Shown in pieces: positions 6,021-28,315 of a stretch of 64,000 nucleotides of DNA. The notes under the pieces were generated by a model, which saw only the letters and a program-made list of their open reading frames with translations, did no database searches and had not been told where the DNA came from. The stretch's first letter is position 1. The number at the start of each line of letters is the position of its first letter. The position numbers and the translations under genes are program-made. The stretch is taken from positions 961 to 64,960 of the forward strand of contig CAZVED010000001.1 of NCBI GenBank assembly GCA_964626205.1. Reading direction: 5' to 3'. This DNA is from an uncultured Gammaproteobacteria bacterium. GTDB lineage: Bacteria > Patescibacteriota > Patescibacteriia > SG8-24.

Positions 6021-6032
6021 AGTTGAGTGGGT

Positions 6033-6090
6033 TAAGCTCAGAAGCTTGTCCGGCAGTATTGACAAAACCGTGTGTTCATGCTATAGTCGC
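6033..6090 (+). promoter_or_regulatory. sigma-70-type promoter module (TTGACA-17-TATAGT) with conserved upstream box TAAGCTCAGAAGCTTGTCCGGCAGT
   Basis: TTGACA at 6059-6064, 17-nt spacer, TATAGT at 6082-6087; the whole roughly 55-bp module is duplicated at 7656-7713. Confidence 0.5.
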
Positions 6091-6287
6091 AAGTTCATTG
6101 AAGCACGGAAACCGTCTGGTGAACCGCGATGTCGCCTCCTCCTAGTCGTCGCGGACTCATCAGCCGGTTTCCGGTGCTGCAAGGCATCGGTGGTGTTTTC
6201 ATCGGTTCGAGGATAGTCCTCGGCCGACCATGATGTGATTTGCCCGGACGGGCTTTGTTTGCCCGATGAGGGCGGAGGGTACTGAAC

Positions 6288-7520: not shown

Positions 7521-7553
7521 GGCAGCCTCTTCGTGAGGCTGCCGTTTGATTTT
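7521..7553 (+). terminator. rho-independent terminator
   Basis: GGCAGCCTC-ttcg-tGAGGCTGCC followed by GTTTGATTTT. Confidence 0.6.
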
Positions 7554-7633
7554 AAGCTGGATGCGGGTACCAAAATAAGGCGAAAACGAGGAATAAGCGG
7601 GAGGAAATAGGCTGGATGCGGGTACCAGCTTAA
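7552..7633 (-). repeat. family-A REP/BIME-like element (copy 1, reverse orientation)
   Basis: TTAAGCTGGATGCGGGTACC ... GGAAATAGGCTGGATGCGGGTACCAGCTTAA; reverse complement of the copies at 16551, 26753 and 28189. Confidence 0.8.
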
Positions 7634-7655
7634 ATATCTAAGCGAGCTTATCTTT

Positions 7656-7713
7656 TAAGCTCAAAAGTCTGTCTGGCAGTCTTGACAAACACCACGATTT
7701 ATGCTATAGTCAT
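7656..7713 (+). promoter_or_regulatory. sigma-70-type promoter module (TTGACA-17-TATAGT) with conserved upstream box, paralogue of 6033-6090
   Basis: TAAGCTCAAAAGTCTGTCTGGCAGTCTTGACA at 7656-7688, 17-nt spacer, TATAGT at 7705-7710. Confidence 0.5.
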
Positions 7714-7850
7714 CCGTTCAGTGAGAGGCCCTTGTCGGGAGTCTCGCAGAACACGAAGTGTGGTCTTTCCAAGTGAATCTCACGATGTCGGCCACGGTGG
7801 TCGATGTCTCAGGTTTTGATGCCTTCGGGCTTTTGCAACGGGAGATAGCA

Positions 7851-9023
7851 ATGAACAAGCACTGGGTGATTCTGGGTTTCTTGGTTCTCGGTCTCTCCGC
7901 CTGTGTCGAAGACACGGGTGGTAAGGACGGCATGAACGGCATCGACGGCATGAACGGCGACGCCGGCCCGCAAGGCGAGCCTGGCGAAGACGGCACGAAC
8001 GGCCGCGACGGCACCGACGGTGAAGACGGTCAGAACGGCACGGACGGTACCAACGGTACCGACGGTGTCGATGGTCAGGACGGGCGTGACGGCGAAGACG
8101 GCACGGATGGTACCGACGGTACCGACGGTCGCGACGGCACGGACGGTCAGGACGGCCGCGACGGAACGACGACCATCGTCATCTGTGGTGATCACGAATG
8201 TGACACGCAGAACGGCGAGAACGTCAGCAACTGCGCCATCGACTGCGCTTCGACTCCGGCTCCGTTCTGCGGCGACAACAGCTGCAACAACGGTGAGACG
8301 CACGCGACCTGCTCTGCAGATTGCGATGCGCCTCCGGTCGACCCTCAGGCACCCTACTGCGGCGACGCGTCGTGTAACAACGGCGAGACGCCCAGCAGCT
8401 GCCCGGACGACTGCGGCACCTGCGGTGATGGAAGCTGCAACAACGGCGAAGATCACCTCCTGTGCCCGGACGACTGCGAAGCGCCCGTGGTGACCGAGAC
8501 GTACGCTGGCCCGTTCAAGATGTATCGTGAGCGCCTGACGGACGGTTCGTACCTCTGCTCGATCGGGGTCAACCCGAACTACGCGAGCGGCGCAGCCAAC
8601 AACCAGATCGTCGGAGAAGGCGCAAGCTTCCTCTCGAACTGGGAGTCGGGCTCATCGAGCCAGATCCTGGCCTACCAGAACGGCGGCATCGAGTCGGACG
8701 GATACGTTCGCTTCGAGCTTCCGCGCGATAGCCAGCCAATCGGCACGTCCACGATTCGCTTCTCGTACCGTGGCTGGAATCCCCAGTCGCACAAGTACGA
8801 GTACGCGCAGTACGGCGACGCGGACACGCAGCTCGCGCGCATGACGGACGAGAGCCTCTCGATGGTGTACTGCTTCCAGTACGACCCGTCGAAGTCCTCG
8901 TACGGCTGCTCGGGTCGCATGACCTACGAGGTGTTCGCCAACCCGAACACCAACAAGAAGGACTGTCGGCTGACCGCAGCCGGTAACGCCCAAGTTGCCA
9001 ACGACCTCGTCGTCAGCAACTGA
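7851..9023 (+). CDS. collagen-like triple-helix-repeat lipoprotein with three Cys-rich repeats and a C-terminal globular domain
   Basis: lipobox LVLGLSAC; about 29 uninterrupted G-X-Y triplets (GKDGMNGIDGMNGDAGPQGEPGEDG...GRDG); three repeats CGD(N/A/G)SCNNGE(T/D)H..C..DC; start placed at ATG 7851, preferred over the ORF-track start 7758. Confidence 0.7.
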   Translation: MNKHWVILGFLVLGLSACVEDTGGKDGMNGIDGMNGDAGPQGEPGEDGTNGRDGTDGEDGQNGTDGTNGTDGVDGQDGRDGEDGTDGTDGTDGRDGTDGQDGRDGTTTIVICGDHECDTQNGENVSNCAIDCASTPAPFCGDNSCNNGETHATCSADCDAPPVDPQAPYCGDASCNNGETPSSCPDDCGTCGDGSCNNGEDHLLCPDDCEAPVVTETYAGPFKMYRERLTDGSYLCSIGVNPNYASGAANNQIVGEGASFLSNWESGSSSQILAYQNGGIESDGYVRFELPRDSQPIGTSTIRFSYRGWNPQSHKYEYAQYGDADTQLARMTDESLSMVYCFQYDPSKSSYGCSGRMTYEVFANPNTNKKDCRLTAAGNAQVANDLVVSN

Positions 9024-9162: not shown

Positions 9163-10719
9163 ATGCTGCATATCGTACGGAGAATTGAAGCGCATCTTGG
9201 CATCGCTCCTGTGGAGACCGAGCGGGAGCAACGCCGTCGTTTCTTGAAGATCGTGCTCGGCACGGCGCTGGCCGTCGGTTTGCTCGTCATTGCGCTCTCG
9301 CCCTGGAAGGCGCTGGCGCTCGTCGTGGGCCTCATTTTCGCCGGGTTCGCGGTTGCAAAGCCGGAGCTCGTCATTTTGTTCCTTGTCGCATACACACCGT
9401 TCGAACCATTCCTTCTCAAGTTCGTTCCGGACGACATCTACCTCTTTGCGCGGTACTTCTCCGAGGGGCTCATTTACCTCTTGCTCGTCGTGGTTGGCAT
9501 TCTCGTTGCGCGGCGCAAGCGTAAGATCGTTCCCACGCCGCTCGACCTGCCGTTCGTTTTCCTGCTCATTGTGGCGATGACGTCGCTTGTCGTGAATGTC
9601 GTGCCTCCGTTTATTGGTCTTCTCGGGTTGCGTCAGGTCATTAGGTTCATGCTCTTGTTCTTCCTGACGGTGTATCTCGCTCCAGACAACGATTTCGTAA
9701 AAACGGTCACGAAGGTGATGTTCGCCATCGTGTTGTTCCAAGGCTTGCTCGGCATCACGCAGTCCGCCGTCGGCGGGCGCTTGGACGAGTTCCTTATTCC
9801 GAGCGAGCGTCGGTTCTTCGAGAGCATTCAGCTCACGAGCGGTACGGAGCAGTTCTGGTCGCCGGGCACGCGCGTCTTCGCGACTATGGGGCGCTATGAC
9901 CAGCTTGGCACATTCCTCGCGTTCTTCCTTCTTGTCGCAATCGGTCTTTGGTATCACGAAAAAGACCGTTCGAAGAAGCGAATGCTGCTCTGGCTCGTCC
10001 TGCTCTGCGCGCCAGGGCTCGTCATGACGCTTTCGCGCGCGTCATGGTTCGGGTTCCTTCTCGGGTTCCTGGTTATTGCGGCATGGTTGCGGGAGGACTG
10101 GCGCGTGCGCGCCGGCCTCGCCATCTGCGCGGCTGCGGCGATTCTCTATGTTACGTTCACGGGTCTTACAGTGAAGTACCTCACGGACTATGCCGGACAG
10201 ACGCCGGTCGAACGTTTGTTTGAAGCGTTCTCGTATGAGCGATGGCGCGGGGAATACCTCGGCCTCGGTCGCCTGTACTGGATCGTACAGACGCCGACGG
10301 TCGTCGTCCCGTCCTCACCGCTCTTTGGTGTCGGTCCCGGTCAGTATGGCGGGGGAGCGGCAGCCGCGCTCGGCAATTCTCGTGTGTACGAGAAGCTCGG
10401 TCTTCCATTCGGTGTGTACGGAACTGAGGGATACATCGACAACAACTGGTTCGCGGTTTGGGGCGAGCTCGGCACGCTCGGTCTCGCATTCTACATTTGG
10501 ATGGTCACGGCGCTTGGGCGTGTCGCGTATGACGCATGGCGGAACGGACGCGATACATGGACGAGGGGACTCGCACTCGGGTATCTCGGTGCGCTCGTTG
10601 CAGTGAGCTTCCAGGCTTTCCTCGGGACGTATCTCGAAGTGCGCACACTCGCCATCTACCTTTGGCTGTATGGGGCGTTCGTCCTCGTGCTGGCACGTCG
10701 TGATCGGCGTATCGCTTAA
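9163..10719 (+). CDS. O-antigen ligase/polymerase-family (Wzy_C-like) polytopic membrane protein
   Basis: more than 10 TM helices; LSRASWFGFLLGFLV and the C-terminal TEGYIDNNWFAVWGELGTLGL loop are typical of the O-antigen ligase family; start chosen at MLHIVRR (the ORF-track ORF extends to 8995). Confidence 0.6.
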   Translation: MLHIVRRIEAHLGIAPVETEREQRRRFLKIVLGTALAVGLLVIALSPWKALALVVGLIFAGFAVAKPELVILFLVAYTPFEPFLLKFVPDDIYLFARYFSEGLIYLLLVVVGILVARRKRKIVPTPLDLPFVFLLIVAMTSLVVNVVPPFIGLLGLRQVIRFMLLFFLTVYLAPDNDFVKTVTKVMFAIVLFQGLLGITQSAVGGRLDEFLIPSERRFFESIQLTSGTEQFWSPGTRVFATMGRYDQLGTFLAFFLLVAIGLWYHEKDRSKKRMLLWLVLLCAPGLVMTLSRASWFGFLLGFLVIAAWLREDWRVRAGLAICAAAAILYVTFTGLTVKYLTDYAGQTPVERLFEAFSYERWRGEYLGLGRLYWIVQTPTVVVPSSPLFGVGPGQYGGGAAAALGNSRVYEKLGLPFGVYGTEGYIDNNWFAVWGELGTLGLAFYIWMVTALGRVAYDAWRNGRDTWTRGLALGYLGALVAVSFQAFLGTYLEVRTLAIYLWLYGAFVLVLARRDRRIA

Positions 10720-12433: not shown

Positions 12434-13585
12434 TTATGCGTTGGCGGTTGCCGCGGTCGCTTCCTCATTGAGGAGGTGGACGTAGAGCGTTTCGACTTCG
12501 GCGACGATGTCGTTCCAGTGGTAGTCGCGGAGGACGAACTCGCGTGCAGCCGCCCCCTTTTCTGCGGCGAACTCGGGGTTCGCGAGGAGGTGACGGAGTT
12601 TGCGGGCGAGGTCCTTCACGCTACCACTCGTGAACGCGAGGCCGTGCTGGCGGGTGACTTCCATGATTTCCGGGATGTCGGAAGCAAGGACGGCTTTGCC
12701 GTAGCTCATCGCTTCGAGTACTGCGATCGGCAGACCCTCGGATTCCGAAGGGTGCACGATGGCGTACGCGTTGGCGAAGAGCTGGTGCAACCGCTCGCCG
12801 TTCTGGTAGCCAGTGAAGACGATGTCCGGATGATCGCCGGCGAGCTTCTTGCACTCCGCGACGTAGTCGTCCGTGAAGGCGGTGTCGCCGACGATGACGA
12901 GCTTCTTGCCGTGGGTCGCGCTCATGGCGTGGAGCTGCTGGTAGGCGTCAATGAGGTAGTGAGCGCCCTTGTGCCGCACGAGGCGGGACACCATGGCGAT
13001 GTACTTTCCTTTCTCCAGGCCAAAGTCGGCAAGGAGGTCATCGTTCGCTTCTTCCGGTGCGCTGATGCCGTTGGGGATGTAGCGCGCGTTCATGGAGAAG
13101 CTGTTGTTGCAGTAGGACTGCAGCGTGCGCGAGACCGCGATGGTCTCGTGCGCGAAGGTGCATGCGGCGCGCTCGCCGAGGCTGAGCGCGAGGCGCGCGA
13201 CGAAGCCCCACTTCTGGTGGTGGCGGTCGATACAGTGGAAGGTCGTCACAACCTTGATGCGCGGCGCGAAAACGCGCGGAATCCATGAGAGGAGGGAAGG
13301 GCCGACACCGTGGTAATGGATGATGTCGACGCCGTCCATGATGGCGCGGATGGTGGAGGTAAACGTGTGCACAATCGCATCGAGGTGCTTGGTGGCGATG
13401 GTGGGGGTGACGACGACACGCACGCCTGGAGCGAACTCCGTGCGCGCAGGTGCGTACCAGCCGCGAGCGAAGGCGGTGACGGTGTGGCCGGCAGCGCCAA
13501 GACGGACGGCAAGTGCTTCCACGTGTCGTTCGATGCCGCCGAAGCGGGTCGGGATACCTTTTTGGCCAATCATGGCGATATGCAT
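12434..13585 (-). CDS. glycosyltransferase family 4
   Basis: MHIAMIGQKGIPTRFGGIERHVEALAVRL (GT4 N-terminus) and ESEGLPIAVLEAMSYGKAVLASDIPEIMEV. Confidence 0.7.
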   Translation of the reverse strand: MHIAMIGQKGIPTRFGGIERHVEALAVRLGAAGHTVTAFARGWYAPARTEFAPGVRVVVTPTIATKHLDAIVHTFTSTIRAIMDGVDIIHYHGVGPSLLSWIPRVFAPRIKVVTTFHCIDRHHQKWGFVARLALSLGERAACTFAHETIAVSRTLQSYCNNSFSMNARYIPNGISAPEEANDDLLADFGLEKGKYIAMVSRLVRHKGAHYLIDAYQQLHAMSATHGKKLVIVGDTAFTDDYVAECKKLAGDHPDIVFTGYQNGERLHQLFANAYAIVHPSESEGLPIAVLEAMSYGKAVLASDIPEIMEVTRQHGLAFTSGSVKDLARKLRHLLANPEFAAEKGAAAREFVLRDYHWNDIVAEVETLYVHLLNEEATAATANA

Positions 13586-13687
13586 ACAGTCGATGTTTTT
13601 CGCTTATTTCAGCGATGAAACGGTATCTAGGGAACATCGGACTATAGCATAAAAACCACCCTTTGTCAAGGGTGGCGGGGAAACGAT

Positions 13688-13762
13688 TTAAGCTGGACAC
13701 GGGTACCGAAATAGGGCGGAAATGAAGAATGGGCGGGAGGAAATAGGCTGGATGCGGGTACA
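13688..13762 (+). repeat. family-A REP/BIME-like element (copy 2, left flank of RAYT)
   Basis: TTAAGCTGGACACGGGTACC-gaaatagggcggaaatgaagaatgggcgggaggaaata-GGCTGGATGCGGGTAC. Confidence 0.8.
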
Positions 13763-13815
13763 GAGCACGTAAATGCTCTTGCGGATATTTTTGCGCGGTG
13801 CTAACTCGCTGACAT

Positions 13816-14370
13816 ATGGCAAGAAAGCTTCGACAATTACATACGGGAGGGGTGTATCATGTCATTTATCGTGGCAATAACCGCGCGGCGATTTTTGCTG
13901 ATGCGGAAGATTCGGAATATTTTCTTGCGTTATTACGTCGGCTAAAGCGAAGAGATGGTATGCGCGTGTTTCACTATGTGGTCATGACGAATCATGTGCA
14001 TATGGTGGTGATGCCAGAAGCGACGAAAGAATTGTCGCGAATCATGCAGGGATTGGCGCGGGCATACACGGCGTACTACAAACGCAAGTACGGTTTTGTC
14101 GGACAGCTATGGCAGGGGAGATACTTTAGCGCGCTCATCGACACCGATGCGTATCTGTTGACGTGCGGCATCTATATCGAGCTCAATCCGGTCCGTGCGG
14201 GAATGGTCGATGATCCGATGCAGTATCCATGGTCCAGCGCGCATGCGTACGCAACTGAGAAGACAGACGCGATTGTTGACGAGAGTCCGTTGTATGCAGG
14301 ATTAGGCATGACGTATGAAGCGCGGCGGAAGTCATATCGACATTTGTTGAATATGTGGATGAAAAAATAA
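13816..14370 (+). CDS. REP-associated tyrosine transposase (RAYT, IS200/IS605-like Y1 HuH transposase)
   Basis: HuH motif NHVHMVV and catalytic-Tyr motif YIELNPVRAGMV (compare E. coli YafM HMHCIW / YIYINPVKHGWV); 184 aa; flanked by REP copies. Confidence 0.85.
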   Translation: MARKLRQLHTGGVYHVIYRGNNRAAIFADAEDSEYFLALLRRLKRRDGMRVFHYVVMTNHVHMVVMPEATKELSRIMQGLARAYTAYYKRKYGFVGQLWQGRYFSALIDTDAYLLTCGIYIELNPVRAGMVDDPMQYPWSSAHAYATEKTDAIVDESPLYAGLGMTYEARRKSYRHLLNMWMKK

Positions 14371-14452
14371 ATAGGCTGGATGCGGGTACCAGCCTATTTC
14401 CTCCCGCCTATTCTTCATTTCCGCCCTATTTCGGTACCCGTGTCCAGCTTAA
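14371..14452 (-). repeat. family-A REP/BIME-like element (copy 3, right flank of RAYT)
   Basis: GGCTGGATGCGGGTACCAGCC-tatttcctcccgcctattcttcatttccgccctatttc-GGTACCCGTGTCCAGCTTAA; contains the stop codon of the convergent gene 14449..16521. Confidence 0.8.
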
Positions 14453-16521
14453 TTTGGAACCACCACCGACCGAGCGTCATCGTAGTCGAACGGAAGCCGT
14501 GTCGTGACGTCACCGATATGGTGCGTAACTCGGGTTCCCGTCGCGACGTCCGTGCCGGTCACAGAGATGCCGGTAAGCAGCGCGGGGAGGGTGCCGATGT
14601 CGGTGTCGGTCGGGGTGAACGCCAGCTCGAAGCTTGCGCCAGGAGAACTTGCGCGTTCCTGCGTGAACGCGGAAACCGCAGGGATCTTCCAGGTCACGCG
14701 TCGCGTAGACGGGAAGTAGTCGAGCGCCTCGCCTTGCGTGACGCTGAACCGTCCGGTCCACTCCGTACCCGGTGCAAGGAACGCTTCCACGACCGCGTCC
14801 TCGATGACATGTTGCGCGTTGTCGAGTTGGAGGACGATGCGATAGCGCGTCGTTTCGTTAACGGTCGGTGGCAGCGGACCGCGGCCAATCTGGTCGCCGC
14901 TGCGCGTGTAGTAGATGCCCGCGGCTTGCAGGCGGAGCTCTGTCGCGACCGGCACATCGACGGTCGGAGTGTCGATGACGACTTGTTCGCCTCCAGCGGC
15001 TTCTTCGTGTACGGCGGTAAGCAGCGCGGAGAATGCCGCAGATGCTGTTTCTGTGCCGAGCGCGTCCATGACAGACGGCGTAATTTCGCGACGCACGGTG
15101 AGTGTTGTCGTGACTGAGATGGTGTCACCGGGTGCGATGCTGGCGAGCGATGGCGTGTCTTCTGCGGTCCAGGTGAGGATCGGAGTAGCATCGCCATCCA
15201 TGACAAAGAGGCTGTCGGTCACGGAAAGCTGAATAACGCCGTTCGTAAAGGTGCGATCGCCATCGTTGCGCGCGTTGAGGTGCACGGTGACAGTGTCGCC
15301 TGGGCGAAGGAATCGCGTTTCTGCGCTTCCAAGGTCCTGCGTGAGCGTGAGGCCGGAGGAGAGCGAGTTCGCATTCACGCGCGTCGTTGAGGCAGTCACG
15401 GCTGTTCGTGCAGATGCGTTGGCGACGAGGTCGGCAGCGAACGACGTGGACGATGCTTGTCCCGGTGTCGCGCGGAGATAACCGTAGACGACAATCGTCC
15501 CGCGCGCATCCGAAGCAAGGTCGCCTAAGCGCCACAAGCCGGAGCTCGTCGCACGAGGTGCGCTTCCGGTGGTCACGAAGTCCGCTGGGGGCGTGAAGCG
15601 TACTGCCGCGTCGGGGACGGCGCGGTTGGAGGTGTTGGCGTAGGAGAGCGTGACGGCGGTCGTTGCTCCGCGGAGGATGGTTTCCGGAACGGAGATGTCG
15701 ACGCCGACTGCGGAAGAACCGATGGGGAGGCGAATGTGGAACGGAGTAACGACGGGTTCTGTGCTCCCTTCAGTCCAATAGGAGATAGATGCCGGGATCT
15801 CCACGACTGAGCCGATAGGGCCGTAGGGGACGCCAGTCAGGGTTGCGCCACGCTTTGCGCCAGGCATGAGCGGCGGAAGCGGAACGGCGATGGAGGTCGC
15901 AGCGACCGCTGGAGGGACGCAGGAGCGAAGCTCGGTTTCGCTTAGTGCGCCGCCGTGCAGGGAAATGCCTGCATGCGCCATGGACGGCGGGAGATCGACG
16001 GTGAGGATAGTGCAAGGGAGTGCCACGGTAGTAGAGAAGTTCGTGTAATCGATGGTCGCGACCGAGGATTCGCCGCTCACGGATGCCACGGGAGCGTGGA
16101 CCGTGACGGTGAGCACGTTCGGGTTCGCGCTCGGCAGGAAATACGGCGAATAGACGCCGGCGACGATAAGTGCGGCGATGACGACAGCGAGCACGAGGTC
16201 GATAGCGACGAGCTTGTGTGCGTGCTTCGGGTACTTTGCCTTGTACTTCCGTTCCCAGTGCCCCTTGAGCGGCTCGTAGCAGATTTTATGGATGGGATCC
16301 GAGACGAGGACAGCATGCTTATGCGCATGTTTATGCATGCTCGCGAGCGGCGGATAGCAGACACGCTTTACCGGATCCATGAGCTCGCCTGCCTTGTCGC
16401 GCAAAAGGCTCAGTGTCTCAATGGCCGCGCTCATGCCTTTCGCCATAGGCGAAGCTGCCGCGGCGCGGAGCTTTTCCTCGTCGGTCATCACCTTCGGTTG
16501 TTTTGGAGTCTTTGCTTTCAT
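14449..16521 (-). CDS. membrane-anchored surface protein with tandem beta-sandwich (DUF11/Ig-like) repeats; Cys/His-rich cytoplasmic N-terminus
   Basis: cytoplasmic N-terminus with paired motifs RVCYPPLASMHKHAHKH / KICYEPLKGHWERKYKAKYPKHAHK; one TM (LVAIDLVLAVVIAALIVAGV); about 570-aa extracellular Thr/Val/Ser-rich repetitive beta region. Confidence 0.6.
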   Translation of the reverse strand: MKAKTPKQPKVMTDEEKLRAAAASPMAKGMSAAIETLSLLRDKAGELMDPVKRVCYPPLASMHKHAHKHAVLVSDPIHKICYEPLKGHWERKYKAKYPKHAHKLVAIDLVLAVVIAALIVAGVYSPYFLPSANPNVLTVTVHAPVASVSGESSVATIDYTNFSTTVALPCTILTVDLPPSMAHAGISLHGGALSETELRSCVPPAVAATSIAVPLPPLMPGAKRGATLTGVPYGPIGSVVEIPASISYWTEGSTEPVVTPFHIRLPIGSSAVGVDISVPETILRGATTAVTLSYANTSNRAVPDAAVRFTPPADFVTTGSAPRATSSGLWRLGDLASDARGTIVVYGYLRATPGQASSTSFAADLVANASARTAVTASTTRVNANSLSSGLTLTQDLGSAETRFLRPGDTVTVHLNARNDGDRTFTNGVIQLSVTDSLFVMDGDATPILTWTAEDTPSLASIAPGDTISVTTTLTVRREITPSVMDALGTETASAAFSALLTAVHEEAAGGEQVVIDTPTVDVPVATELRLQAAGIYYTRSGDQIGRGPLPPTVNETTRYRIVLQLDNAQHVIEDAVVEAFLAPGTEWTGRFSVTQGEALDYFPSTRRVTWKIPAVSAFTQERASSPGASFELAFTPTDTDIGTLPALLTGISVTGTDVATGTRVTHHIGDVTTRLPFDYDDARSVVVPN

Positions 16522-16550
16522 ATATATGCCGATAGTGTAGCAGAGTGCAT

Positions 16551-16632
16551 TTAAGCTGGTACCCGCATCCAGCCTATTTCCTCCCGCCTATTCTTCATTT
16601 CCGCCTTATTCCGGTACCCGTGTCCAGCTTAA
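16551..16632 (+). repeat. family-A REP/BIME-like element (copy 4)
   Basis: TTAAGCTGGTACCCGCATCCAGCC-tatttcctcccgcctattcttcatttccgccttattcc-GGTACCCGTGTCCAGCTTAA between two minus-strand genes. Confidence 0.8.
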
Positions 16633-16636
16633 ACCG

Positions 16637-18670
16637 TCACTGCCCAACGGACGAGAGCGTGAAGACGTCCGTGGTAAGCGTCACGACTTCGTCTTTTCCG
16701 TCGCCGTCGATGTCTGCCGAGGAGACGCGCACGCCAGTCCGACTTCGTGCGTCTCCGGCAAAGAAGCCGAGGCTGAGTGCGCGTCCGTACTTGTCGAAGA
16801 CGCGCACGTGCGGACCGCCGCCCGGCCCAGCTCCCGTGACGATTTCGTCTTTACCATCGCCGTCCAGGTCGCCGGCTGCCACATGGACGCCGCCGCGGAA
16901 GGCCGGGTCGTAGGCGAAGAAACCAGGATTGAGGAGCCGCCCGTTCTTGTCGAAGATGCGCACGTGCGGACCGCCGCCAACACCAGCACCGGCAATAATC
17001 TCGTGCGCGCCATTGCCGTCGATATCGCCCAGGGCGATGTTGACGCCGCCACGGAAGCGGGGGTCGTAGGCGAAGAAGCCGGGGTTGATGAGCACGCCAT
17101 CCATATTAAAGACGCGGATCTGCGGGCCGGCACCAGAGCCGGTACCGGTGACGATTTCCATCTTACCGTCGCCCTCAAGATCGCCGACCGCGAAGTTGAT
17201 GCCGAGGCGATAGTTTTCGCCGTACGGCTTGAAGGACGTCTTGAGCCGGCCGTCTGCCCAGTAGATGCGAATCTCCGAGTTCGTCGCAACGACCTTCTCG
17301 AGTGTCCCGGAGACGCCGTCGATATCCGTCACGACCACGTTCGTACCACCGTCAAACGGACCTTCATAGGCAAAGAAGCCGTTTCGGACTTGTGCGCCAG
17401 CCCCGGAATAGACGCGCGCAAAGGCGCCGTTCACGAACGTTCCGCCGACAATGCGCTCTACCGGGCGGGTGAGGACGATGCCGTCGAGGCCGGAGAGCGT
17501 CACCGAGGTGACGATGCTGCCGTCGTTGACGCGCGGGTCTTGTGTGCCGCTGAGCTTTTCCATTTCGATGCCGAGGTCGACGGTTTGCGCACGGTCCGTG
17601 GAGTTCACAAGAACGGTCCCGTTCGTGAAGTCGCGTCGGTACACGCCGCGCTGGAGGTTCCGAGCGTTGGGGGAGAGGAGGTTCACCGGGCCCGAGAGCG
17701 GACGTCCGAGATGGACGCTGTACTCATCGTAGTGCCAGAGCTGGCCGTGGTTCTGGTCGCCGAAGTCGTAGCTGAAGAAGCCTTGGCCGAGGAGTGCGGT
17801 CGTGAGCGTGTAGCGGACATTCGCGTAGTCGGCGTTATTGCCGGAGTTGGACGTATTGCCGTTCACGACGAAGACCGGCGTGTAGCCCACACGATCGTGG
17901 AGGTCGAGGTAGTTTTGCGTGACACCCTCCCACGTACCGCCCGCTTCCCACGGGGTAGGGTAGGTTTCGAACATGCGTCCGTTCACGTGTGGCTGGAGCT
18001 CGCCGGTGGAATCGCCGTTCGTCACGATGACGGCGCTCGCACCCAAAAGGTCGCGGGTGTTCTTGAGCAGGTTCACGGTCGCGCGCTTCCATGCCGTGTC
18101 CGCGAGGTGCGCGTCCGTCCGTGCGCCGGAGCGGTGGATGTCGATGTTGCCGCCGTTCACCCAAGAGATGTTCGCGGAGAGCTCATCGTAGAAGACACCG
18201 TCCCAGAGTCCGGTCGCCATGATCTCGTCTTTCACGAACTGCGGGAGGACGGTCTGCCAGCTCCCGACGGTGTTGATGACCGTCGTTCCCGGCCAGACGG
18301 AGACTGCGCGACCGGACGGGTCGCGGAGCCACATGTCGTCGGTGATGTGCGTGCGGAGTTTCTGGTGGAGCGGATCGACCCAGATGCTGTTCCATGACTT
18401 CGATGGGACGTAGGCGAGGATGAGGACGTTCGGATTCAGGCGGCGGAGTTCGTCGAACATCGCACGGTTGTACACCTGCGCTTCAGCCGGGAAGATGAGG
18501 AGGTCGTAGCGCGCGAGCTGCGGGTAGAGCGCCGGGGTGATGTCCGTTCCAGCACGGAGATAGTAGTTCGCCGTCCGCACGAACTTGTCGTCCGGCGTTT
18601 TGATGGCGGCATCTGCCGACTGTGCGCCGAAGAGCCCCATCGCGATGAGGGGGGCCATGAGCAGTGTCAT
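16637..18670 (-). CDS. secreted glycoside-hydrolase-like (TIM-barrel GHL-type) protein with C-terminal FG-GAP/beta-propeller repeats
   Basis: signal peptide MTLLMAPLIAMGLFGAQSADA; N-terminal roughly 400-aa domain resembling glycoside-hydrolase-like families; four C-terminal repeats FRGGV..A.GD.DGDG..EIVTGAG.GGGPHVR.F; the ORF-track start 18730 lies inside a family-B repeat, so start set at M21 (alternative 18658). Confidence 0.6.
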   Translation of the reverse strand: MTLLMAPLIAMGLFGAQSADAAIKTPDDKFVRTANYYLRAGTDITPALYPQLARYDLLIFPAEAQVYNRAMFDELRRLNPNVLILAYVPSKSWNSIWVDPLHQKLRTHITDDMWLRDPSGRAVSVWPGTTVINTVGSWQTVLPQFVKDEIMATGLWDGVFYDELSANISWVNGGNIDIHRSGARTDAHLADTAWKRATVNLLKNTRDLLGASAVIVTNGDSTGELQPHVNGRMFETYPTPWEAGGTWEGVTQNYLDLHDRVGYTPVFVVNGNTSNSGNNADYANVRYTLTTALLGQGFFSYDFGDQNHGQLWHYDEYSVHLGRPLSGPVNLLSPNARNLQRGVYRRDFTNGTVLVNSTDRAQTVDLGIEMEKLSGTQDPRVNDGSIVTSVTLSGLDGIVLTRPVERIVGGTFVNGAFARVYSGAGAQVRNGFFAYEGPFDGGTNVVVTDIDGVSGTLEKVVATNSEIRIYWADGRLKTSFKPYGENYRLGINFAVGDLEGDGKMEIVTGTGSGAGPQIRVFNMDGVLINPGFFAYDPRFRGGVNIALGDIDGNGAHEIIAGAGVGGGPHVRIFDKNGRLLNPGFFAYDPAFRGGVHVAAGDLDGDGKDEIVTGAGPGGGPHVRVFDKYGRALSLGFFAGDARSRTGVRVSSADIDGDGKDEVVTLTTDVFTLSSVGQ

Positions 18671-21531: not shown

Positions 21532-24500
21532 ATGACAGACGTAATGAAAATGAGCCGGAAGGCCTTTTCGATCGGTGTCGTCGCTCTGACGGTTGCCTGG
21601 TCGATCGGTCTCTCCGCCCTCCTCGCTCCGCTCGCTTCGAGCGCTGCAGTGTCGGGTTCGCTCATCAAGGCTTCCATGCCGGCCGTGTACTACATGGGCT
21701 CGGATGGCAAGCGCTATGTGTTCCCGAACGAAAAGACCTACTTCTCTTGGTACGCGGATTTCTCCGCTGTCCAGGTCATCACGGATTCGGAGCTCGCCTC
21801 CCTTCCGATCGGTGGCAACGTCACGTACCGCCCGGGTGTTCGCATGGTGAAGATCCAGACTGATCCGAAGGTGTACGCAGTTGACTCTCATGGTGTCCTT
21901 CGCTGGATCACCTCTGAGGCGGCAGCTGTCGCTCTCTACGGTTCCGCTTGGAACACCATGGTTCACGATGTCTCGGATGCGTTCTTCACCAACTACACGG
22001 TTGGCGCAGACGTCTCCGGTCCGTCGGACTTCAACCCGGGTGCCGCAACGGCAGCCGCAACATCCATCAACCAGGACAAGAACCTCTCAACGGGTTCTGC
22101 CGCTGGCCTCAGCGTCTCCAAGGCGTCTGACTCCCCGATGGGTGCCACCCTTCCGCTCGGCGCGATGGGTGTCAACTTCGTCAAGTTCAACGTCATGAAC
22201 GGCGGTTCTTCCGCTGCTATGCTCTCCTCGCTCACGGTCATGCGTTCCGGCCCTGGCTATGCCAGCGACTTCGACGCGGTGTACGTGTACCGCGGCTCCG
22301 AGCGTTTGACGACCGGCCGCTCGATCAACTCCTCGTCCAACGAGGCGACGTTCAGCGGTTTGAACCTCTCGATCCCGGCGGGCGGCTCCGTCTCCCTCTG
22401 GATCGCGGGTGACATCTCCACGTCCGCTTTCGCAGGCAACGTGAACGCGCTCTCCGTGAGCAGCGTCATGGTTGGCAGCAGCTCCGTGTCCGGCACGCCG
22501 GTCATGGGCTCTTCCTTCAGCCTCGCAGGTGCAACGGTCGGTGAAATTGACATCGAGCGCACTGGCGGCTCCACCCTTGCCAACATCAAGGCAGGTGGTC
22601 TCGCGCAGCGCGTCGCATCGTTCCGTCTCACGGCCGGCAATCAGGAGGACCTCGATGTCCACTCTGTCGCGCTCACCTTCGGTGGTAACCTGAACCGTGC
22701 TCACCTCTCCAACTTCGTGCTCAAGCAGAGTGGCTCCACGCTCGCGTCGATCCCGTCCATCTCGGACAAGGACCTCGTGACGTTCGCCTTCTCGAGCCCG
22801 ATGTTCATGGAGAAGGGCGCTCAGCGCACCTTCGATGTGTTCGCGGATGTGAACGCAGGCGCTCGCTCCGGCGATGAGGTTGCGTTCTATGTCGATGTCA
22901 ACGCGGATGTCCGCGCCATGGGCCGCACCTACGGCTTCGGTGTGATGACGACCATTGACGCCACGTTCGACGCGTCCACCGATCAGGTGGCAACGGTCGA
23001 AGCAGGCAAGCTCACCACCACCTTCAATGGCCCGGCCTCCAAGGACGTGCTCGCGAACGGCAAGGATGTCGAGCTCTTCAACTTCACGGTCGCGGCTCAG
23101 GCCAACCTGGAGTTCCGCGAGGTCACGCTCGCACTTGACACCAACGGTGGCGACCCTCTCAACACCGTAGTCAGCGACATCAAGATCGTTGACACGGCCA
23201 ATGGTGCTATCGTTGCTGGTCCGACGGATGGCGGCGCAAGCTGCGTCCTCACGGCCAACACGGGTACGTGCGCCTTCTCGGAGACTTGGAACCTCGCGAG
23301 CGGCCAGTCGCGCACCTTCAAGGTGACGGCTGACATCAACTCCGCTGCGAATGGTGATGAAATTCGCGTGACGCTCGGCTCCGGCCAGTTGTTCGCGAAC
23401 AGCAAGGTCCGCAACTTGGACAACAACACCTACCTCGGCGCGTCCGACATGGTTCCGTCCACGGTGCTTGGAGGTAACATCCACACGGTGACCGACTCCG
23501 GTCTCACGGTTGGTAACGCCTCGACACCGGTTGCTCAGACCTACATCAAGGGCTCCTCGGACATCGCGCTCGCAGGCTGGTCCTTCACGGCAGCTGACGC
23601 TGCCCCGGTTCGCTTGAACTCGATCACGGTAGACTGTACCGCTGACGATGACAGCACGGTGAACGAGAAGGACGAGCTGTGCAACAGCGTTGTGCAGACA
23701 GTGAGGCTCATGAACGGTGCGACCCAGGTCGGCGTCACTGCCAGCCCGGATTCGTCCGACAGCATCCGCTTCGACAACCTCAATCTCACCATCAATGGTG
23801 GACAGAGCATGACGCTTGTGCTCATGGGCACGCTCTCCAGCTCTGCTCCGACCACGACCTACCTCGGGTTCGAGATTGAAGATGTTGATGTCACTGATGC
23901 TGACGGTGGTACGGTAAGCGACTCTGGCGTTCCTACGGCCATGAGCGCACTTATGACCGTCGCCGCGCAGGGCTCCGTCACGCTCGTCAACGCCCCAGTT
24001 GATATTGAGTCTGAGCCGAGCCTCGTTATCGGTGGCTCGTCGAACGTCGTGCTCGGTAAGTACCGCATGACCGCTCAGGACGAAGAGCTTCGCCTGTCGA
24101 AGGTGCAGTTCAGCGTCGCTACCCCGGCTGGTATTTCAACGGTGTCGCTCCACGATGGCGCAACGCTCGTTGGCGGTCCGGTCAGTGTGGTTGGCGGCCT
24201 CGCCACCTTCTCTTCGGTGAACTTCGTTGTTCCGAAGGACACGTCCAAGACCCTCACGGTCAAGGCGAACCTCAACACCGTCTCGCCGACCACTTCCGGT
24301 CCGCAGCCGATGGACCCGGTGACCATCACGATGCTTGATGCCAACCTCGAGATCCGCGGAACGTCCGCTGGTTCGGGCACGACCATCGTCTCCGCTGGTA
24401 CGGGCGACCCACTGGCCGGCAACCTCGCGGCCTACGGTAAGTTCATCGTGAAGTCCAAGCCGACGGTTGAAGTCGTGAGCGGTGACAAGGTGCTGGTCAA

Positions 24501-24945
24501 CAGCGCTGCCGCGAACGTCCTCACCCTTACGGTCTCGGCCGACACGGCTGGTCCGGTGGCGTTCCAGACCCTCGAGTTCACGGTGAACGACGACACGAAC
24601 CTCGGTGTCCTCGCCTGCTCGGGCACTGAGTCCAGCGTCTTCACGGCCAGCAACAACCAGGTTGTTGTCGGTAACTGTGACCTCACTGGCTCGTCTCTCA
24701 CCATCGACTTCACCGACGAACAGGTGGTCAACGCAGGAACCGCGAAGTCCTACTACCTCATGCTCAACATCTCGGGCACGGCAGATGGCGACTCGGTCAG
24801 CGTTGTTCTCGAGAGCACTGGCTTCGGCTGGTCTGATTACTCGGCTGTCGGTCACGACACGACGGGTATGACGGGTGCTGACTGGTTCACGGATGGTGAC
24901 TACGTCAAGTACCTTCCGTCCACGGCTCGCACGCTCTCCCGCTAA
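21532..24945 (+). CDS. large secreted surface protein: conserved ~110-aa N-terminal domain (YYxGxDGKRYxFPN...DPKVYAV...LRWI) plus tandem Ig-like beta-sandwich repeats
   Basis: signal peptide; N-terminal domain shared with 25412, 26892 and 28316 genes; more than 900 aa of Thr/Ser/Gly/Val-rich repeats; good RBS (AAAAGGAAAATAAGATATG). Confidence 0.65.
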   Translation: MTDVMKMSRKAFSIGVVALTVAWSIGLSALLAPLASSAAVSGSLIKASMPAVYYMGSDGKRYVFPNEKTYFSWYADFSAVQVITDSELASLPIGGNVTYRPGVRMVKIQTDPKVYAVDSHGVLRWITSEAAAVALYGSAWNTMVHDVSDAFFTNYTVGADVSGPSDFNPGAATAAATSINQDKNLSTGSAAGLSVSKASDSPMGATLPLGAMGVNFVKFNVMNGGSSAAMLSSLTVMRSGPGYASDFDAVYVYRGSERLTTGRSINSSSNEATFSGLNLSIPAGGSVSLWIAGDISTSAFAGNVNALSVSSVMVGSSSVSGTPVMGSSFSLAGATVGEIDIERTGGSTLANIKAGGLAQRVASFRLTAGNQEDLDVHSVALTFGGNLNRAHLSNFVLKQSGSTLASIPSISDKDLVTFAFSSPMFMEKGAQRTFDVFADVNAGARSGDEVAFYVDVNADVRAMGRTYGFGVMTTIDATFDASTDQVATVEAGKLTTTFNGPASKDVLANGKDVELFNFTVAAQANLEFREVTLALDTNGGDPLNTVVSDIKIVDTANGAIVAGPTDGGASCVLTANTGTCAFSETWNLASGQSRTFKVTADINSAANGDEIRVTLGSGQLFANSKVRNLDNNTYLGASDMVPSTVLGGNIHTVTDSGLTVGNASTPVAQTYIKGSSDIALAGWSFTAADAAPVRLNSITVDCTADDDSTVNEKDELCNSVVQTVRLMNGATQVGVTASPDSSDSIRFDNLNLTINGGQSMTLVLMGTLSSSAPTTTYLGFEIEDVDVTDADGGTVSDSGVPTAMSALMTVAAQGSVTLVNAPVDIESEPSLVIGGSSNVVLGKYRMTAQDEELRLSKVQFSVATPAGISTVSLHDGATLVGGPVSVVGGLATFSSVNFVVPKDTSKTLTVKANLNTVSPTTSGPQPMDPVTITMLDANLEIRGTSAGSGTTIVSAGTGDPLAGNLAAYGKFIVKSKPTVEVVSGDKVLVNSAAANVLTLTVSADTAGPVAFQTLEFTVNDDTNLGVLACSGTESSVFTASNNQVVVGNCDLTGSSLTIDFTDEQVVNAGTAKSYYLMLNISGTADGDSVSVVLESTGFGWSDYSAVGHDTTGMTGADWFTDGDYVKYLPSTARTLSR

Positions 24946-25054
24946 TTCCTTTCTCGCCTTGGAGCTCAGGTTCGCCTGAGCTCCGGGCAGAACGGTTTTC
25001 CGGAACGTGCTCCCGCTCGTGTACGAACCGGACAGCAGGAAAGCAAAACAAACA

Positions 25055-25087
25055 CCCCGCCTTTACTGGCGGGGTTTTGTTTTTTGG
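25055..25087 (+). terminator. rho-independent terminator
   Basis: CCCCGCC-tttact-GGCGGGG followed by TTTTGTTTTTT. Confidence 0.6.
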
Positions 25088-25170
25088 GGTCTTGTAGGTT
25101 TTTCGCGCATCACCTAGGTTCCGCATCGCCTCGACATCCAATCTTATTCTTCTGTACACTAACGTCATCT

Positions 25171-25398
25171 ATGAATGAAGATCTCATCATCCAAAAGCTC
25201 ATTGAGCTCGACCATAAGGTCGGCACGCTTGCCACGCAGGGGAGCGTTGACGCGAGGTTTGACGATGTCATGGCGACTCTCGACTCGCACACCGCCATGT
25301 TACAGCGCCTCGACCACGAGCGCGTGTTCACGTTTGAGCGGGTGAAGCGCATCGAAGACGACGTGCGCGGGCTGAAGACGCATTTGGGGGTGGTATGA
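25171..25398 (+). CDS. small (75 aa) coiled-coil hypothetical protein
   Basis: MNEDLIIQKLIELDHKVGTLATQ... heptad-like; starts 14 nt upstream of gene 25412; no antisense gene. Confidence 0.3.
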   Translation: MNEDLIIQKLIELDHKVGTLATQGSVDARFDDVMATLDSHTAMLQRLDHERVFTFERVKRIEDDVRGLKTHLGVV

Positions 25399-25411
25399 CA
25401 AAACCCCGCAG

Positions 25412-26698: not shown

Positions 26699-26700
26699 CA

Positions 26701-26730
26701 AGGAGCGGCCCGGCCGCTCCTTTTGCTTTT
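26701..26730 (+). terminator. rho-independent terminator
   Basis: GGAGCGGCC-cg-GCCGCTCC then TTTTGCTTTT directly after the stop at 26698. Confidence 0.6.
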
Positions 26731-26752
26731 GGGAGCGACACACCAGGCGGGT

Positions 26753-26832
26753 TTAAGCTGGTACCCGTGTCCAGCCTATTTCCTCCCGCTTATTTCTCGT
26801 TTCCGCCTTATTTCGGTACCCGCATCCAGCTT
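26753..26832 (+). repeat. family-A REP/BIME-like element (copy 5)
   Basis: TTAAGCTGGTACCCGTGTCCAGCC-tatttcctcccgcttatttctcgtttccgccttatttc-GGTACCCGCATCCAGCTTT. Confidence 0.8.
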
Positions 26833-26891
26833 TAGTGGTTGCCATACTGAGCGTTTTTCGGCATGCTGGAGGTCATATAACCCCACGTCGT

Positions 26892-28136: not shown

Positions 28137-28188
28137 GCGAGCAATCACGCACGCGAATCAAAACATCGAATCTTCAGGCGTTTTCGTT

Positions 28189-28270
28189 TTAAGCTGGTAC
28201 CCGTGTCCAGCCTATTTCCTCCCGCCCATTTCTCGCTTCCGCCTTATTTCGGTACCCGCATCCAGCTTAA
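28189..28270 (+). repeat. family-A REP/BIME-like element (copy 6)
   Basis: TTAAGCTGGTACCCGTGTCCAGCC-tatttcctcccgcccatttctcgcttccgccttatttc-GGTACCCGCATCCAGCTTAA. Confidence 0.8.
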
Positions 28271-28315
28271 AACCGTGGTATACTGCATGAACGATTCAGT
28301 GTTTTTGTCGTACCC

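What the first reader, a model, noticed from the sequence alone, without database searches (positions are those of the whole stretch)
13688..14452. Complete REP-RAYT module: HuH tyrosine transposase bracketed by inverted BIME-like REP elements
The 184-aa ORF 13816..14370 carries both signature motifs of REP-associated tyrosine transposases. It has the HuH motif (NHVHMVV) and the catalytic-Tyr motif (YIELNPVRAGMV), compared with HMHCIW and YIYINPVKHGWV in E. coli YafM. About 50 bp on either side lie roughly 80-bp elements (13688-13762 and 14371-14452) in mutually inverted orientation. Each has TTAAGCTGG...CCAGCTTAA termini and GCTGG-N9-CCAGC hairpin units. Four more copies occur elsewhere in the window. 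This is the architecture by which RAYTs are thought to mobilise their cognate REPs. If the organism is a reduced-genome uncultivated lineage, as other genes hint, an active REP/RAYT system there is little described.
Basis: partly seen in the sequence, partly recalled or inferred. Interest (0 to 1): 0.7.

Follow-up and report, generated by a model that had tools for sequence, protein, structure and literature searches.

The report
RAYT-type transposase gene with cognate repeats
A candidate-phyla-radiation (Patescibacteria) genome carries an intact RAYT-like single-strand-DNA tyrosine transposase gene, bracketed by inverted copies of an 85-base repeat that is also scattered between nearby genes; this is a known kind of system seen in a lineage where it has not been described.

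Summary
ORF 13816-14370 is an intact Y1 HUH enzyme: Pfam Y1_Tnp scores 56.8 bits, and the best structural match is E. coli TnpA-REP (4ER8). It is bracketed by 64-nt inverted repeats matching at 63 of 64 positions. These belong to a roughly 85-nt family with four more intergenic copies in the window (6 core hits against 0.01 expected).

Several details are wrong. The right copy overlaps the stop codon. Neither flanking copy has both termini. The units are not GTAG-REPs or BIMEs; each carries two direct 16-mers and 10-nt terminal inverted repeats.

The motifs NHVH / WQ / YIELNP place the protein in TnpA-Y1 subclass 2.1 (Bertels Group 1, the "TIRYT/TIRtron" type). It is a short form lacking the distal C-terminal domain.

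The organism is Patescibacteria. Homologues in six related loci have the same layout, a hairpin upstream and a hairpin over the stop codon, but with different repeat sequences. Four lie in shared synteny.

The best reading is a domesticated RAYT-like enzyme that acts in trans on its cognate repeats. Activity is inferred, not shown. I class it as a new member of a known kind, of modest interest.

The parts
13687..13761 (-). Left flanking copy of the 85-nt family-A unit. Its outer terminus TTTAAGCTGG is intact. The inner 9 nt (CAGCTTAAA) are missing.
   Evidence: (D9, I10)
13741..13761 (+). Upstream copy of the 21-nt direct repeat AAATAGGCTGGATGCGGGTAC. It lies at -75 to -55 from the ATG, the same position as the upstream hairpin in related loci.
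13762..13815 (+). Leader of the gene. It contains a small hairpin AGAGCA-CGTAAA-TGCTCT (13762-13779) and a CTTGCG box. The box aligns by position with CTTGC(A/G)T boxes upstream of most homologues, so it is a putative promoter (inferred).
   Evidence: the consensus scan gives no strong sigma-70 match here
13816..14370 (+). Intact 184-aa Y1 HUH (RAYT-like, subclass 2.1 type) gene. It has HUH at H60/H62 and Tyr at Y120. GC is 49% against 61% for the window.
14369..14399 (+). Perfect hairpin AAATAGGCTGG-ATGCGGGTA-CCAGCCTATTT overlapping the TAA stop. Its first 21 nt are the downstream copy of the direct repeat.
14369..14452 (+). Right flanking copy of the family-A unit. The inner roughly 19 nt are inverted relative to solo units. 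The outer TTAA supplies the stop codon of the convergent 690-aa gene (14449-16521).
7551..7634 (-). Solo family-A unit in a divergent intergenic region.
16550..16633 (+). Solo family-A unit between two co-directional genes. It is 95-97% identical to the copies flanking the gene.
26752..26832 (+). Solo family-A unit between paralogous genes.
28188..28271 (+). Solo family-A unit between paralogous genes. It is 95% identical to 26752, although the flanking DNA does not align.

Best explanation
This is a RAYT-type locus of the 'TIRtron' flavour. The gene encodes a chromosomal, low-copy HUH/Y1 single-strand-DNA endonuclease-ligase of TnpA-Y1 subclass 2.1 (Bertels Group 1), in a short form. It is bracketed by two inverted, slightly modified copies of its cognate 85-nt repeat.

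Inferred mechanism, by analogy with E. coli TnpA-REP and IS608/ISDra2 TnpA: the enzyme binds the folded repeat on transiently single-stranded DNA. The likely determinant is the 16-mer GGTACCCGYRTCCAGC and the GCTGG/CCAGC stem. It then cleaves through Y120, with H60/H62 holding the metal, and rejoins strands. In this way it copies or moves the short non-autonomous units into intergenic sites, while the gene itself is mostly inherited vertically.

What is shown: the intact catalytic motifs and fold; the inverted flanking copies; the dispersed family; and the conserved hairpin-gene-hairpin layout in relatives.

What is inferred: binding, cleavage, mobilisation in trans, and which strand and site are cut.
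For: Protein:
- Pfam Y1_Tnp scores 56.8 bits against a cutoff of 23.
- The best NCBIfam model is REP_Tyr_transpos.
- All family-invariant residues are present: R19, G20, N59, H60, H62, G96, R102, Y120, N124, P125, R127, S141.
- The AlphaFold model has pLDDT 91.5. Its top PDB hit is 4ER8 (E=6e-10, TM 0.66/0.73), ahead of the IS200/IS608/ISDra2 transposases.
- The motifs NHVH / WQ / YIELNP are those of subclass 2.1 in PMC6006769 Table 1.

Repeats:
- The TIRs match at 63 of 64 positions.
- There are 6 family copies against 0.01 expected, all intergenic.
- Copies fall into two subfamilies, 95-98% identical within each.
- Copies 26752 and 28188 are 95% alike while their flanks do not align. They therefore arrived after the gene duplication.

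Relatives:
- Six Patescibacteria loci (L001, L009, L016, L018, L019, L020) carry a homologue of 44-52% identity. Each is flanked by a direct-repeat hairpin upstream and another over the stop codon.
- Solo hairpins occur at L009:6009 and L020:9636.
- Two paralogues in one genome are only 44% identical and have different flanking repeats.
- Synteny is shared among L001, L009, L016 and L017. RAYT divergence is similar to that of the neighbouring genes.

Other:
- Close homologues are absent from phages and rare on plasmids, in 22 of 72,556 records, all below 45% identity.
Against: - There is no direct evidence of activity. No empty-site or filled-site comparison and no target duplication could be found.
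- Only 64 kb of the genome is visible, so genome-wide copy number and single-copy status are unknown.
- NCBIfam REP_Tyr_transpos falls 1 bit short of its cutoff.
- PMC6006769 reports no REP-like sequences next to subclass 2.1 genes.
- The units fold only moderately better than shuffles. They lack the GTAG foot that E. coli TnpA-REP needs.
- The gene is 12 GC points below the window. It also sits at a different place from its position in the relatives, which could mean it moves or was reacquired.
Confidence: 0.75

Rival explanations
1. The whole 766-bp module (13687-14452) is an autonomous insertion-sequence-like element with long terminal inverted repeats. It moves as a unit, and the 85-nt solo copies are its MITE-like derivatives.
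For: - The 64-nt TIRs match at 63 of 64 positions.
- Solo units share the outer termini of the module, TTTAAGCTGG...CCAGCTTAAA.
- The cassette has 49% GC against 61% for the window.
- Relative to L001, L009, L016 and L017, the gene sits about 10 kb away and in the opposite orientation within the same gene neighbourhood.
- PMC5581495 describes Group 1 as one of the two most IS-like RAYT groups.
Against: - There is one copy in 64 kb and no second hit by tblastn.
- The homologues in L001, L009, L016 and L017 keep one chromosomal position, and their divergence is like that of the neighbouring genes.
- Low GC is shared by all seven homologues, so it is a family trait rather than a sign of recent arrival.
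- A solo unit equals one arm plus 9-10 nt, not two arms.
- Y1 enzymes studied so far do not use double-stranded TIRs (established knowledge of IS200/IS605).
Confidence: 0.15
2. It is an ordinary IS200/IS605-family insertion sequence carrying TnpA only.
For: - It has the Y1_Tnp domain.
- Direct-repeat hairpins lie at both ends of the gene, as with IS200 left and right ends.
Against: - The Tyr motif is Y---NP, not Y---Q (PMC6006769).
- The NCBIfam IS200 model scores 23.7 bits against a cutoff of 55.
- The fold is closer to 4ER8 than to any IS200/IS608 TnpA.
- There is no tnpB next to it.
- The gene is single-copy in the window, while the short repeat is multi-copy.
Confidence: 0.03
3. The repeats are host structural or regulatory elements, such as protein-binding sites or RNA stabilisers. 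They are unrelated to the Y1 protein, which merely lies between two of them.
For: - All copies are intergenic and close to gene ends.
- Two other unrelated repeat families occupy intergenic DNA in the window.
- All family-A copies lie in the repeat-rich first 28 kb.
Against: - The two copies most alike, at 98%, are exactly the pair bracketing the gene in mirror orientation.
- Every related homologue is likewise bracketed by its own repeat, at the same two positions.
- No Rfam family matches.
- The small hairpin is weak as a terminator.
Confidence: 0.07

Closest known systems
TIRYT / TIRtron (Di Nocera et al. 2013, PMC3733652), which corresponds to TnpA-Y1 subclass 2.1 (Quentin et al. 2018, PMC6006769) and RAYT Group 1 (Bertels et al. 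2017, PMC5581495)
   Same: - The motifs NHVH, WQ and YIELNP match.
- The gene is flanked by long inverted repeats unrelated to GTAG REPs, with the 3' repeat overlapping the gene end.
- There is a moderately abundant solo-repeat family.
- Copy number is low and the gene is chromosomal.
- Relatives L001, L009 and L020 even carry the GGGGWSAS motif, as GGGGACAG.
   Different: - This is a short form of 184 aa. It lacks the distal C-terminal HTH-like domain of typical members of 235-245 aa.
- The window's repeat lacks GGGGWSAS.
- The host is Patescibacteria, a phylum not covered by those surveys.
- PMC6006769 found no REP-like sequences beside subclass 2.1 genes, whereas they are clear here.
E. coli TnpA-REP (YafM, PDB 4ER8) with REP/BIME. 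This is subclass 2.2, RAYT Group 2.
   Same: - It has the same HUH/Y1 fold and is the best structural match.
- It has the Y---NP motif.
- The gene is flanked by inverted copies of the repeat it is thought to act on.
   Different: - Sequence similarity is weak (phmmer E=5e-4; 19% identity in the structural alignment).
- The motifs differ: DHLH / WE / YIHYNP there, NHVH / WQ / YIELNP here.
- There is no GTAG foot.
- The units are 85 nt with two direct 16-mers, not 20-40-nt palindromes in alternating orientation.
REPIN-RAYT systems of Pseudomonas (Bertels & Rainey 2011, PMC3116915)
   Same: A single-copy, vertically inherited Y1 gene is accompanied by a population of short non-autonomous repeats in extragenic space.
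   Different: - A REPIN is two inverted REPs forming one long hairpin. Here the two 16-mers of a solo unit are direct.
- Only the copy abutting the gene has them inverted, and that copy folds at -13.9 kcal/mol.
- The copy number seen is small.
IS200/IS605 TnpA (IS608, ISDra2)
   Same: - It shares the HUH/Y1 catalytic core.
- Hairpins lie at both ends of the gene in direct orientation.
   Different: It is Y---Q class, multi-copy, often paired with tnpB, and frequently transferred horizontally. None of these applies here.

Membership tests
Y1 HUH transposase superfamily (Pfam PF01797) | Profile score above the gathering cutoff | tested here: met
   56.8 bits against a cutoff of 23, covering profile positions 6-119 of 121
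Y1 HUH transposase superfamily (Pfam PF01797) | HUH metal-binding motif and a single catalytic Tyr on the C-terminal helix | tested here: met
   H60-V-H62 and Y120 are invariant columns in a 33-sequence alignment. They align to HMH and Y of 4ER8.
Y1 HUH transposase superfamily (Pfam PF01797) | HUH fold | tested here: met
   AF2 model has pLDDT 91.5. By Foldseek, 4ER8 scores E=6e-10 and IS200/IS608/ISDra2 TnpA score E=1e-4 to 3e-6.
RAYT / TnpA-REP in the broad sense (class 2 of PMC6006769) | Y---NP tyrosine motif, as opposed to Y---Q in the IS200 class | tested here: met
   Y120-IEL-N124-P125
RAYT / TnpA-REP in the broad sense (class 2 of PMC6006769) | Gene flanked by repeats that are over-represented in extragenic space | tested here: met
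   The flanking 19-mer occurs 6 times against 0.01 expected, always intergenic
RAYT / TnpA-REP in the broad sense (class 2 of PMC6006769) | Low copy number per genome, with paralogues divergent | tested here: inconclusive
   There is one copy in the 64-kb window. A related genome has two paralogues at 44% identity. The rest of the source genome is not available.
RAYT / TnpA-REP in the broad sense (class 2 of PMC6006769) | NCBIfam NF047646 REP_Tyr_transpos equivalog cutoff | tested here: not met
   79 bits against a cutoff of 80, a miss of 1 bit. It is nonetheless the best-scoring model.
Subclass 2.1 / RAYT Group 1 / TIRYT-TIRtron | Motif set NHVH, W[EQ], YIELNP | tested here: met
   NHVH at 59-62, LWQGRY, and YIELNP at 120-125, compared with Table 1 of PMC6006769
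Subclass 2.1 / RAYT Group 1 / TIRYT-TIRtron | Long terminal inverted repeats flanking the gene and unrelated to GTAG REPs | tested here: met
   The arms are 64 nt and match at 63 of 64 positions. There is no GTAG in the unit.
Subclass 2.1 / RAYT Group 1 / TIRYT-TIRtron | Conserved distal C-terminal HTH-like extension (median length 238 aa) | tested here: not met
   The protein is 184 aa. The alignment shows it ends about 50 residues before the typical members do.
Subclass 2.1 / RAYT Group 1 / TIRYT-TIRtron | GGGGWSAS motif in the TIR. This is present in many TIRtrons, not all. | tested here: not met
   It is absent from the window unit. It is present as GGGGACAG in relatives L001, L009 and L020.
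Classical GTAG-REP / BIME (E. coli type, subclass 2.2) | Imperfect palindrome of 20-40 nt with a 5' GTAG foot, arranged in alternating orientation | tested here: not met
   The units are 85 nt with no GTAG. Their two 16-mers are in direct orientation, and the solo copies are monomers.
REPIN | Two inverted REPs forming one long hairpin | tested here: not met
   Solo units pair only through their 10-13-nt termini. The 16-mers are direct. Only the gene-proximal right copy has them inverted.
IS200/IS605 insertion sequence | Y---Q motif, the IS200 equivalog score, multiple near-identical copies, and often tnpB | tested here: not met
   The NF033573 model scores 23.7 bits against a cutoff of 55. There is no second copy. 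The neighbouring genes are a GT4 glycosyltransferase and an unknown 690-aa protein.
Any of the above | Binding and cleavage of the cognate repeat on single-stranded DNA | not testable with these tools
   This needs biochemistry

The most novel reading that the evidence does not exclude
Within one Patescibacteria clade, an orthologous and mostly vertically inherited short-form subclass 2.1 Y1 enzyme has switched its cognate repeat. Relatives have a 36-40-nt hairpin, TTATCCACA-GGGGACAGTCCCC-TGTGGATAA, whose arms match the DnaA-box consensus. This genome has an unrelated 85-nt composite unit, and the gene has also moved about 10 kb with its repeats. If so, three things would follow. Subclass 2.1 enzymes, reported as lacking REPs, would in fact drive repeat families. 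The gene-plus-repeat module would retain some mobility. Streamlined CPR genomes would tolerate several such families.
Probability: 0.3. Interest if true: 0.5.

Novelty: new member of a known kind. Interest (0 to 1): 0.3.

Why it matters
RAYT/REPIN biology has been worked out almost entirely in Gammaproteobacteria (Groups 2 and 3). For the largest group (Group 1, subclass 2.1) the link to repeats is disputed: Di Nocera found TIR families, whereas Quentin found no REPs.

This locus and its relatives give clean examples in that group of gene-flanking repeats that are also dispersed. They occur in small, uncultivated Patescibacteria genomes, and the repeat sequence turns over between close relatives.

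That is useful comparative material for studying how Y1 enzymes and their DNA targets co-evolve. It is also a reminder that CPR genomes are not free of repeats. It does not reveal a new mechanism.

Tried and rejected
Searches that led nowhere:
- Exact look-ups of the window's own RAYT, of the NCBI call P0002 and of PyrG P0121 found no contig. The rest of the source genome could not be read.
- A scan of 185,579 representative genomes with the 19-nt core gave 6 single hits in unrelated phyla. That is the number expected by chance for about 6e11 bases. The family is therefore absent from that collection, and genome-wide counts were impossible.
- The metagenome scan with the protein returned only relatives of 34-56% identity.
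- The viral scan gave no hits. Rfam gave nothing at the gathering threshold.

Readings rejected:
- IS200-type insertion sequence: rejected on the motif, the model score and the copy number.
- BIME or REPIN: rejected on unit anatomy.
- Copies 26752 and 28188 arising by segmental duplication with their paralogous genes: rejected because the flanks do not align while the units are 95% alike.
- Solo units as internal-deletion derivatives of the cassette bounded by the 21-nt direct repeats: rejected. Only 6 nt beyond the 16-mer match, as seen by reading.
- Target-site duplications: none is visible outside the TTTAA/TTAAA termini.
- A remnant of the gene or a hairpin at the position the gene occupies in relatives (24946-25411): none found.
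- A DnaA_C-like domain in long-form homologues: no Pfam hit at E<=1.

Full report
**1. Observation**

The ORF 13816-14370(+) encodes 184 aa.
- It matches Pfam Y1_Tnp at 56.8 bits (cutoff 23) over nearly the whole profile.
- Among NCBIfam models the best is REP_Tyr_transpos, at 79 bits against a cutoff of 80. The IS200 equivalog fails clearly, at 23.7 against 55.
- In a 33-sequence alignment, all invariant columns of the family are present. These include H60 and H62 of NHVHMVV, and Y120, N124 and P125 of YIELNP.
- phmmer against PDB sequences aligns these motifs with HMHCI and YIYINPVKHGWV of E. coli TnpA-REP, 4ER8 (E=5e-4).
- An AlphaFold model (pLDDT 91.5, pTM 0.88) matches 4ER8 best (E=6e-10, TM 0.66/0.73). 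The IS200/IS608/ISDra2 transposases follow.

The NCBI gene call for this ORF (P0002, 136 aa) appears truncated. Homologues align from M1.

**2. The repeats**

The arms 13688-13751 and 14389-14452 are inverted and match at 63 of 64 positions. They belong to a family of about 85 nt with four further copies: 7551-7634(-), 16550-16633(+), 26752-26832(+) and 28188-28271(+).
- The invariant 19-mer CCAGCCTATTTCCTCCCGC occurs six times against 0.01 expected.
- All copies are intergenic.

A complete solo unit has these features:
- Perfect 10-nt terminal inverted repeats, TTTAAGCTGG...CCAGCTTAAA.
- Two direct copies of the 16-mer GGTACCCGYRTCCAGC, 55 nt apart (12 hits against 0.12 expected).
- One GCTGG-N9-CCAGC hairpin (5 hits against 0.04 expected).
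- A T/C-rich spacer.

- The left flanking copy lacks its inner 9 nt.
- In the right copy the inner roughly 19 nt are inverted. This creates a perfect 11-bp hairpin (14369-14399) that starts inside the TAA stop codon.
- The right element therefore abuts the gene rather than lying 50 bp away.
- As a consequence, a 21-nt direct repeat, AAATAGGCTGGATGCGGGTAC, brackets the gene at 13741-13761 and 14369-14389.

As single-stranded DNA the units fold moderately better than shuffles, with z from -1.3 to -3.5. The folds mainly use the termini. The truncated left copy does not fold.

The copies form two subfamilies, {13687, 14370, 16550} and {7551, 26752, 28188}. Identity is 95-98% within a subfamily and 85-89% between them.

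Copies 26752 and 28188 sit upstream of paralogous genes. Their flanks do not align, and two other paralogues lack a unit. They were therefore inserted after the gene duplication rather than copied with it.

No target duplication is visible. No Rfam family matches.

**3. Organism**

The window has 61% GC and no tRNA genes. It encodes many large proteins without Pfam domains. It also encodes DUF5667, PEGA, PilM and GT4 glycosyltransferase proteins.

Its CTP synthase is 100% identical to a protein on a 143,069-bp NCBI contig. It is 68-84% identical to the listed hits. Among those that carry a name, most are named Patescibacteria group, Candidatus Parcubacteria or Candidatus Uhrbacteria.

The source genome is not in the representative-genome collection. 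It could not be retrieved by exact look-up either.

**4. Relatives**

The closest homologue is P0001, at 75% identity. It lies on a 2,960-bp JGI contig, followed after 77 nt by a convergent 685-aa gene. The window has a 78-nt gap before its convergent 690-aa gene. That contig begins 130 nt upstream of the ATG, which is where the left unit begins in the window.

Six further Patescibacteria loci hold homologues of 44-52% identity: L001, L009, L016/L017, L018, L019 and L020. Each has the same layout.
- A repeat or hairpin lies about 45-110 nt upstream of the ATG.
- A second copy lies in direct orientation and overlaps the stop codon.

In L001, L009 and L020 the element is TTATCC(A/C)CA-N-GGGGACAGTCCCC-N-TG(T/G)GGATAA. 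This contains Di Nocera's GGGGWSAS motif. Solo copies occur at L009:6009-6044 and L020:~9636. L016, L018 and L019 have other sequences. Two paralogues in one genome (L009 and L018, GCA_964407925.1) are 44% identical and have different flanking repeats.

Synteny:
- In L001, L009 and L016/L017 the gene sits between orthologues of window genes 25412-26698 and 21532-24945.
- The divergence of the Y1 gene (44-52%) is similar to that of its neighbours (44-66%). This argues for vertical inheritance.
- In the window, and apparently in P0001's contig, the gene lies at the other end of the same block, in the opposite orientation. No remnant is left at the old site. The module has therefore moved at least once.

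All seven genes are 8-16 GC points below their loci. Low GC is thus a trait of the family here, not a sign of recent import.

Homologues are absent from phage records. They occur on only 22 of 72,556 plasmids, all below 45% identity.

**5. Classification**

Table 1 of Quentin et al. 2018 (PMC6006769) lists NHVH / W[EQ] / YIELNP as the signature of subclass 2.1. This corresponds to Bertels' Group 1 (PMC5581495).
- That paper found no REP-like sequences beside these genes.
- It equates the subclass with the TIRYT/TIRtron of Di Nocera et al. 2013 (PMC3733652). Those are RAYT-like genes flanked by long TIRs unrelated to GTAG REPs, sometimes with moderately abundant TIR families.

The window locus fits that description. 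It is a short form lacking the distal C-terminal domain of typical members of 235-245 aa. It fails the defining features of GTAG-REP/BIME, of REPINs and of IS200/IS605 (see the membership table).

**6. Mechanism**

Shown:
- An intact catalytic core and fold.
- Mirror-image cognate repeats.
- A dispersed intergenic family with young subfamilies.
- A conserved hairpin-gene-hairpin layout across a clade, with repeat turnover.

Inferred from the biochemistry of E. coli TnpA-REP and IS608/ISDra2 TnpA (PMC3479197, PMC8266576 and established knowledge):
- The enzyme recognises the folded repeat on single-stranded DNA.
- It cleaves through Y120 with the HUH-bound metal, and rejoins strands.
- It thereby propagates the short units in trans.

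Which strand and which site are cut is unknown.

A rival reading is that the whole 766-bp TIR-bounded module is itself a mobile element, with the 85-nt units as its MITEs. The relocation and the near-identical TIRs keep this rival alive. The single copy and the conserved synteny in relatives weaken it.

**7. Literature and novelty**

Full-text searches found no paper linking RAYTs, REPINs or TIRYTs with Patescibacteria/CPR. The only paper matching a CPR term and 'tyrosine transposase' together mentions a K07491 hit in an archaeon.

The system is a known kind, seen in a new host lineage and as a short-form protein. I rate it a new member of a known kind, with interest about 0.3.

Noticed in passing
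window 5923, 6020(-), 18665, 19031, 19200(-), 21097, 21191(-), 21286: A second repeat family of about 45 nt: TGTCATTGCGAG-[variable GC-rich hairpin]-CGAAGCAATCCC. There are eight copies, several as inverted pairs 95-170 nt apart (REPIN-like). No cognate Y1 gene lies in the window.
   Followed up: partly
window 41209-41312 and 58709-58813: A third repeat of about 105 nt, with two copies in inverted orientation 17 kb apart, roughly 92% identical (91-93% in the two repeat segments). It folds as one long hairpin (consensus -61.8 kcal/mol), with three compensatory base-pair changes between the copies. There is no Rfam family at the gathering score, only a sub-threshold Acido-Lenti-1 hit.
   Followed up: partly
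L001:9917-9955 and 10544-10582; L009:6009-6044, 9919-9957 and 10544-10580; L020:~8530-8570 and ~9600-9636: In relatives, the hairpin flanking the Y1 gene has arms matching the DnaA-box consensus TTATCCACA, around a GGGGACAGTCCCC core. Quentin et al. noted DnaA_C-like tails in some subclass 2.1 proteins but no DnaA-box-like TIRs. The CPR proteins lack that tail, and long-form homologues gave no Pfam DnaA_C hit.
   Followed up: partly
window 13816-14370, and the homologous genes in L001, L009, L016, L018, L019 and L020: The Y1 genes are consistently 8-16 GC points below their genomic surroundings, even where they are syntenic and apparently vertically inherited. This is unexplained.
   Followed up: partly
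window 1-28300 versus 28300-64000: All copies of repeat families A and B lie in the first 28 kb, which holds glycosyltransferases, collagen-like proteins and large secreted proteins. None lies in the housekeeping-rich remainder. For the four solo family-A copies alone, chance is about 0.04 if placement is uniform; this is a post hoc estimate.
   Followed up: no
window 14449-14452 and 16633-16639: The units sit tightly against gene ends. The outer TTAA of the right flanking copy provides the TAA stop of the convergent 690-aa gene. The unit at 16550-16633 lies 3 nt from the stop of the GHL15/FG-GAP gene and 29 nt upstream of the 690-aa gene's start.
   Followed up: no
window 21532-31192: An array of four paralogous genes (1137, 428, 433 and 958 aa) shares an N-terminal region and has no Pfam domains. 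Orthologues flank the Y1 gene in related genomes.
   Followed up: partly
window 7758-9023: A collagen-like GXY repeat protein (Pfam Collagen, 9-nt periodic repeats at 7920-8185) followed by Cys-rich repeats.
   Followed up: no
window 13641-13669(-), 6032-6101 and 7655-7724: Near-consensus TTGACA-N17-TATAGT promoters recur within short conserved blocks upstream of several genes. One lies immediately outside the left repeat and drives the GT4 gene 12434-13585.
   Followed up: no
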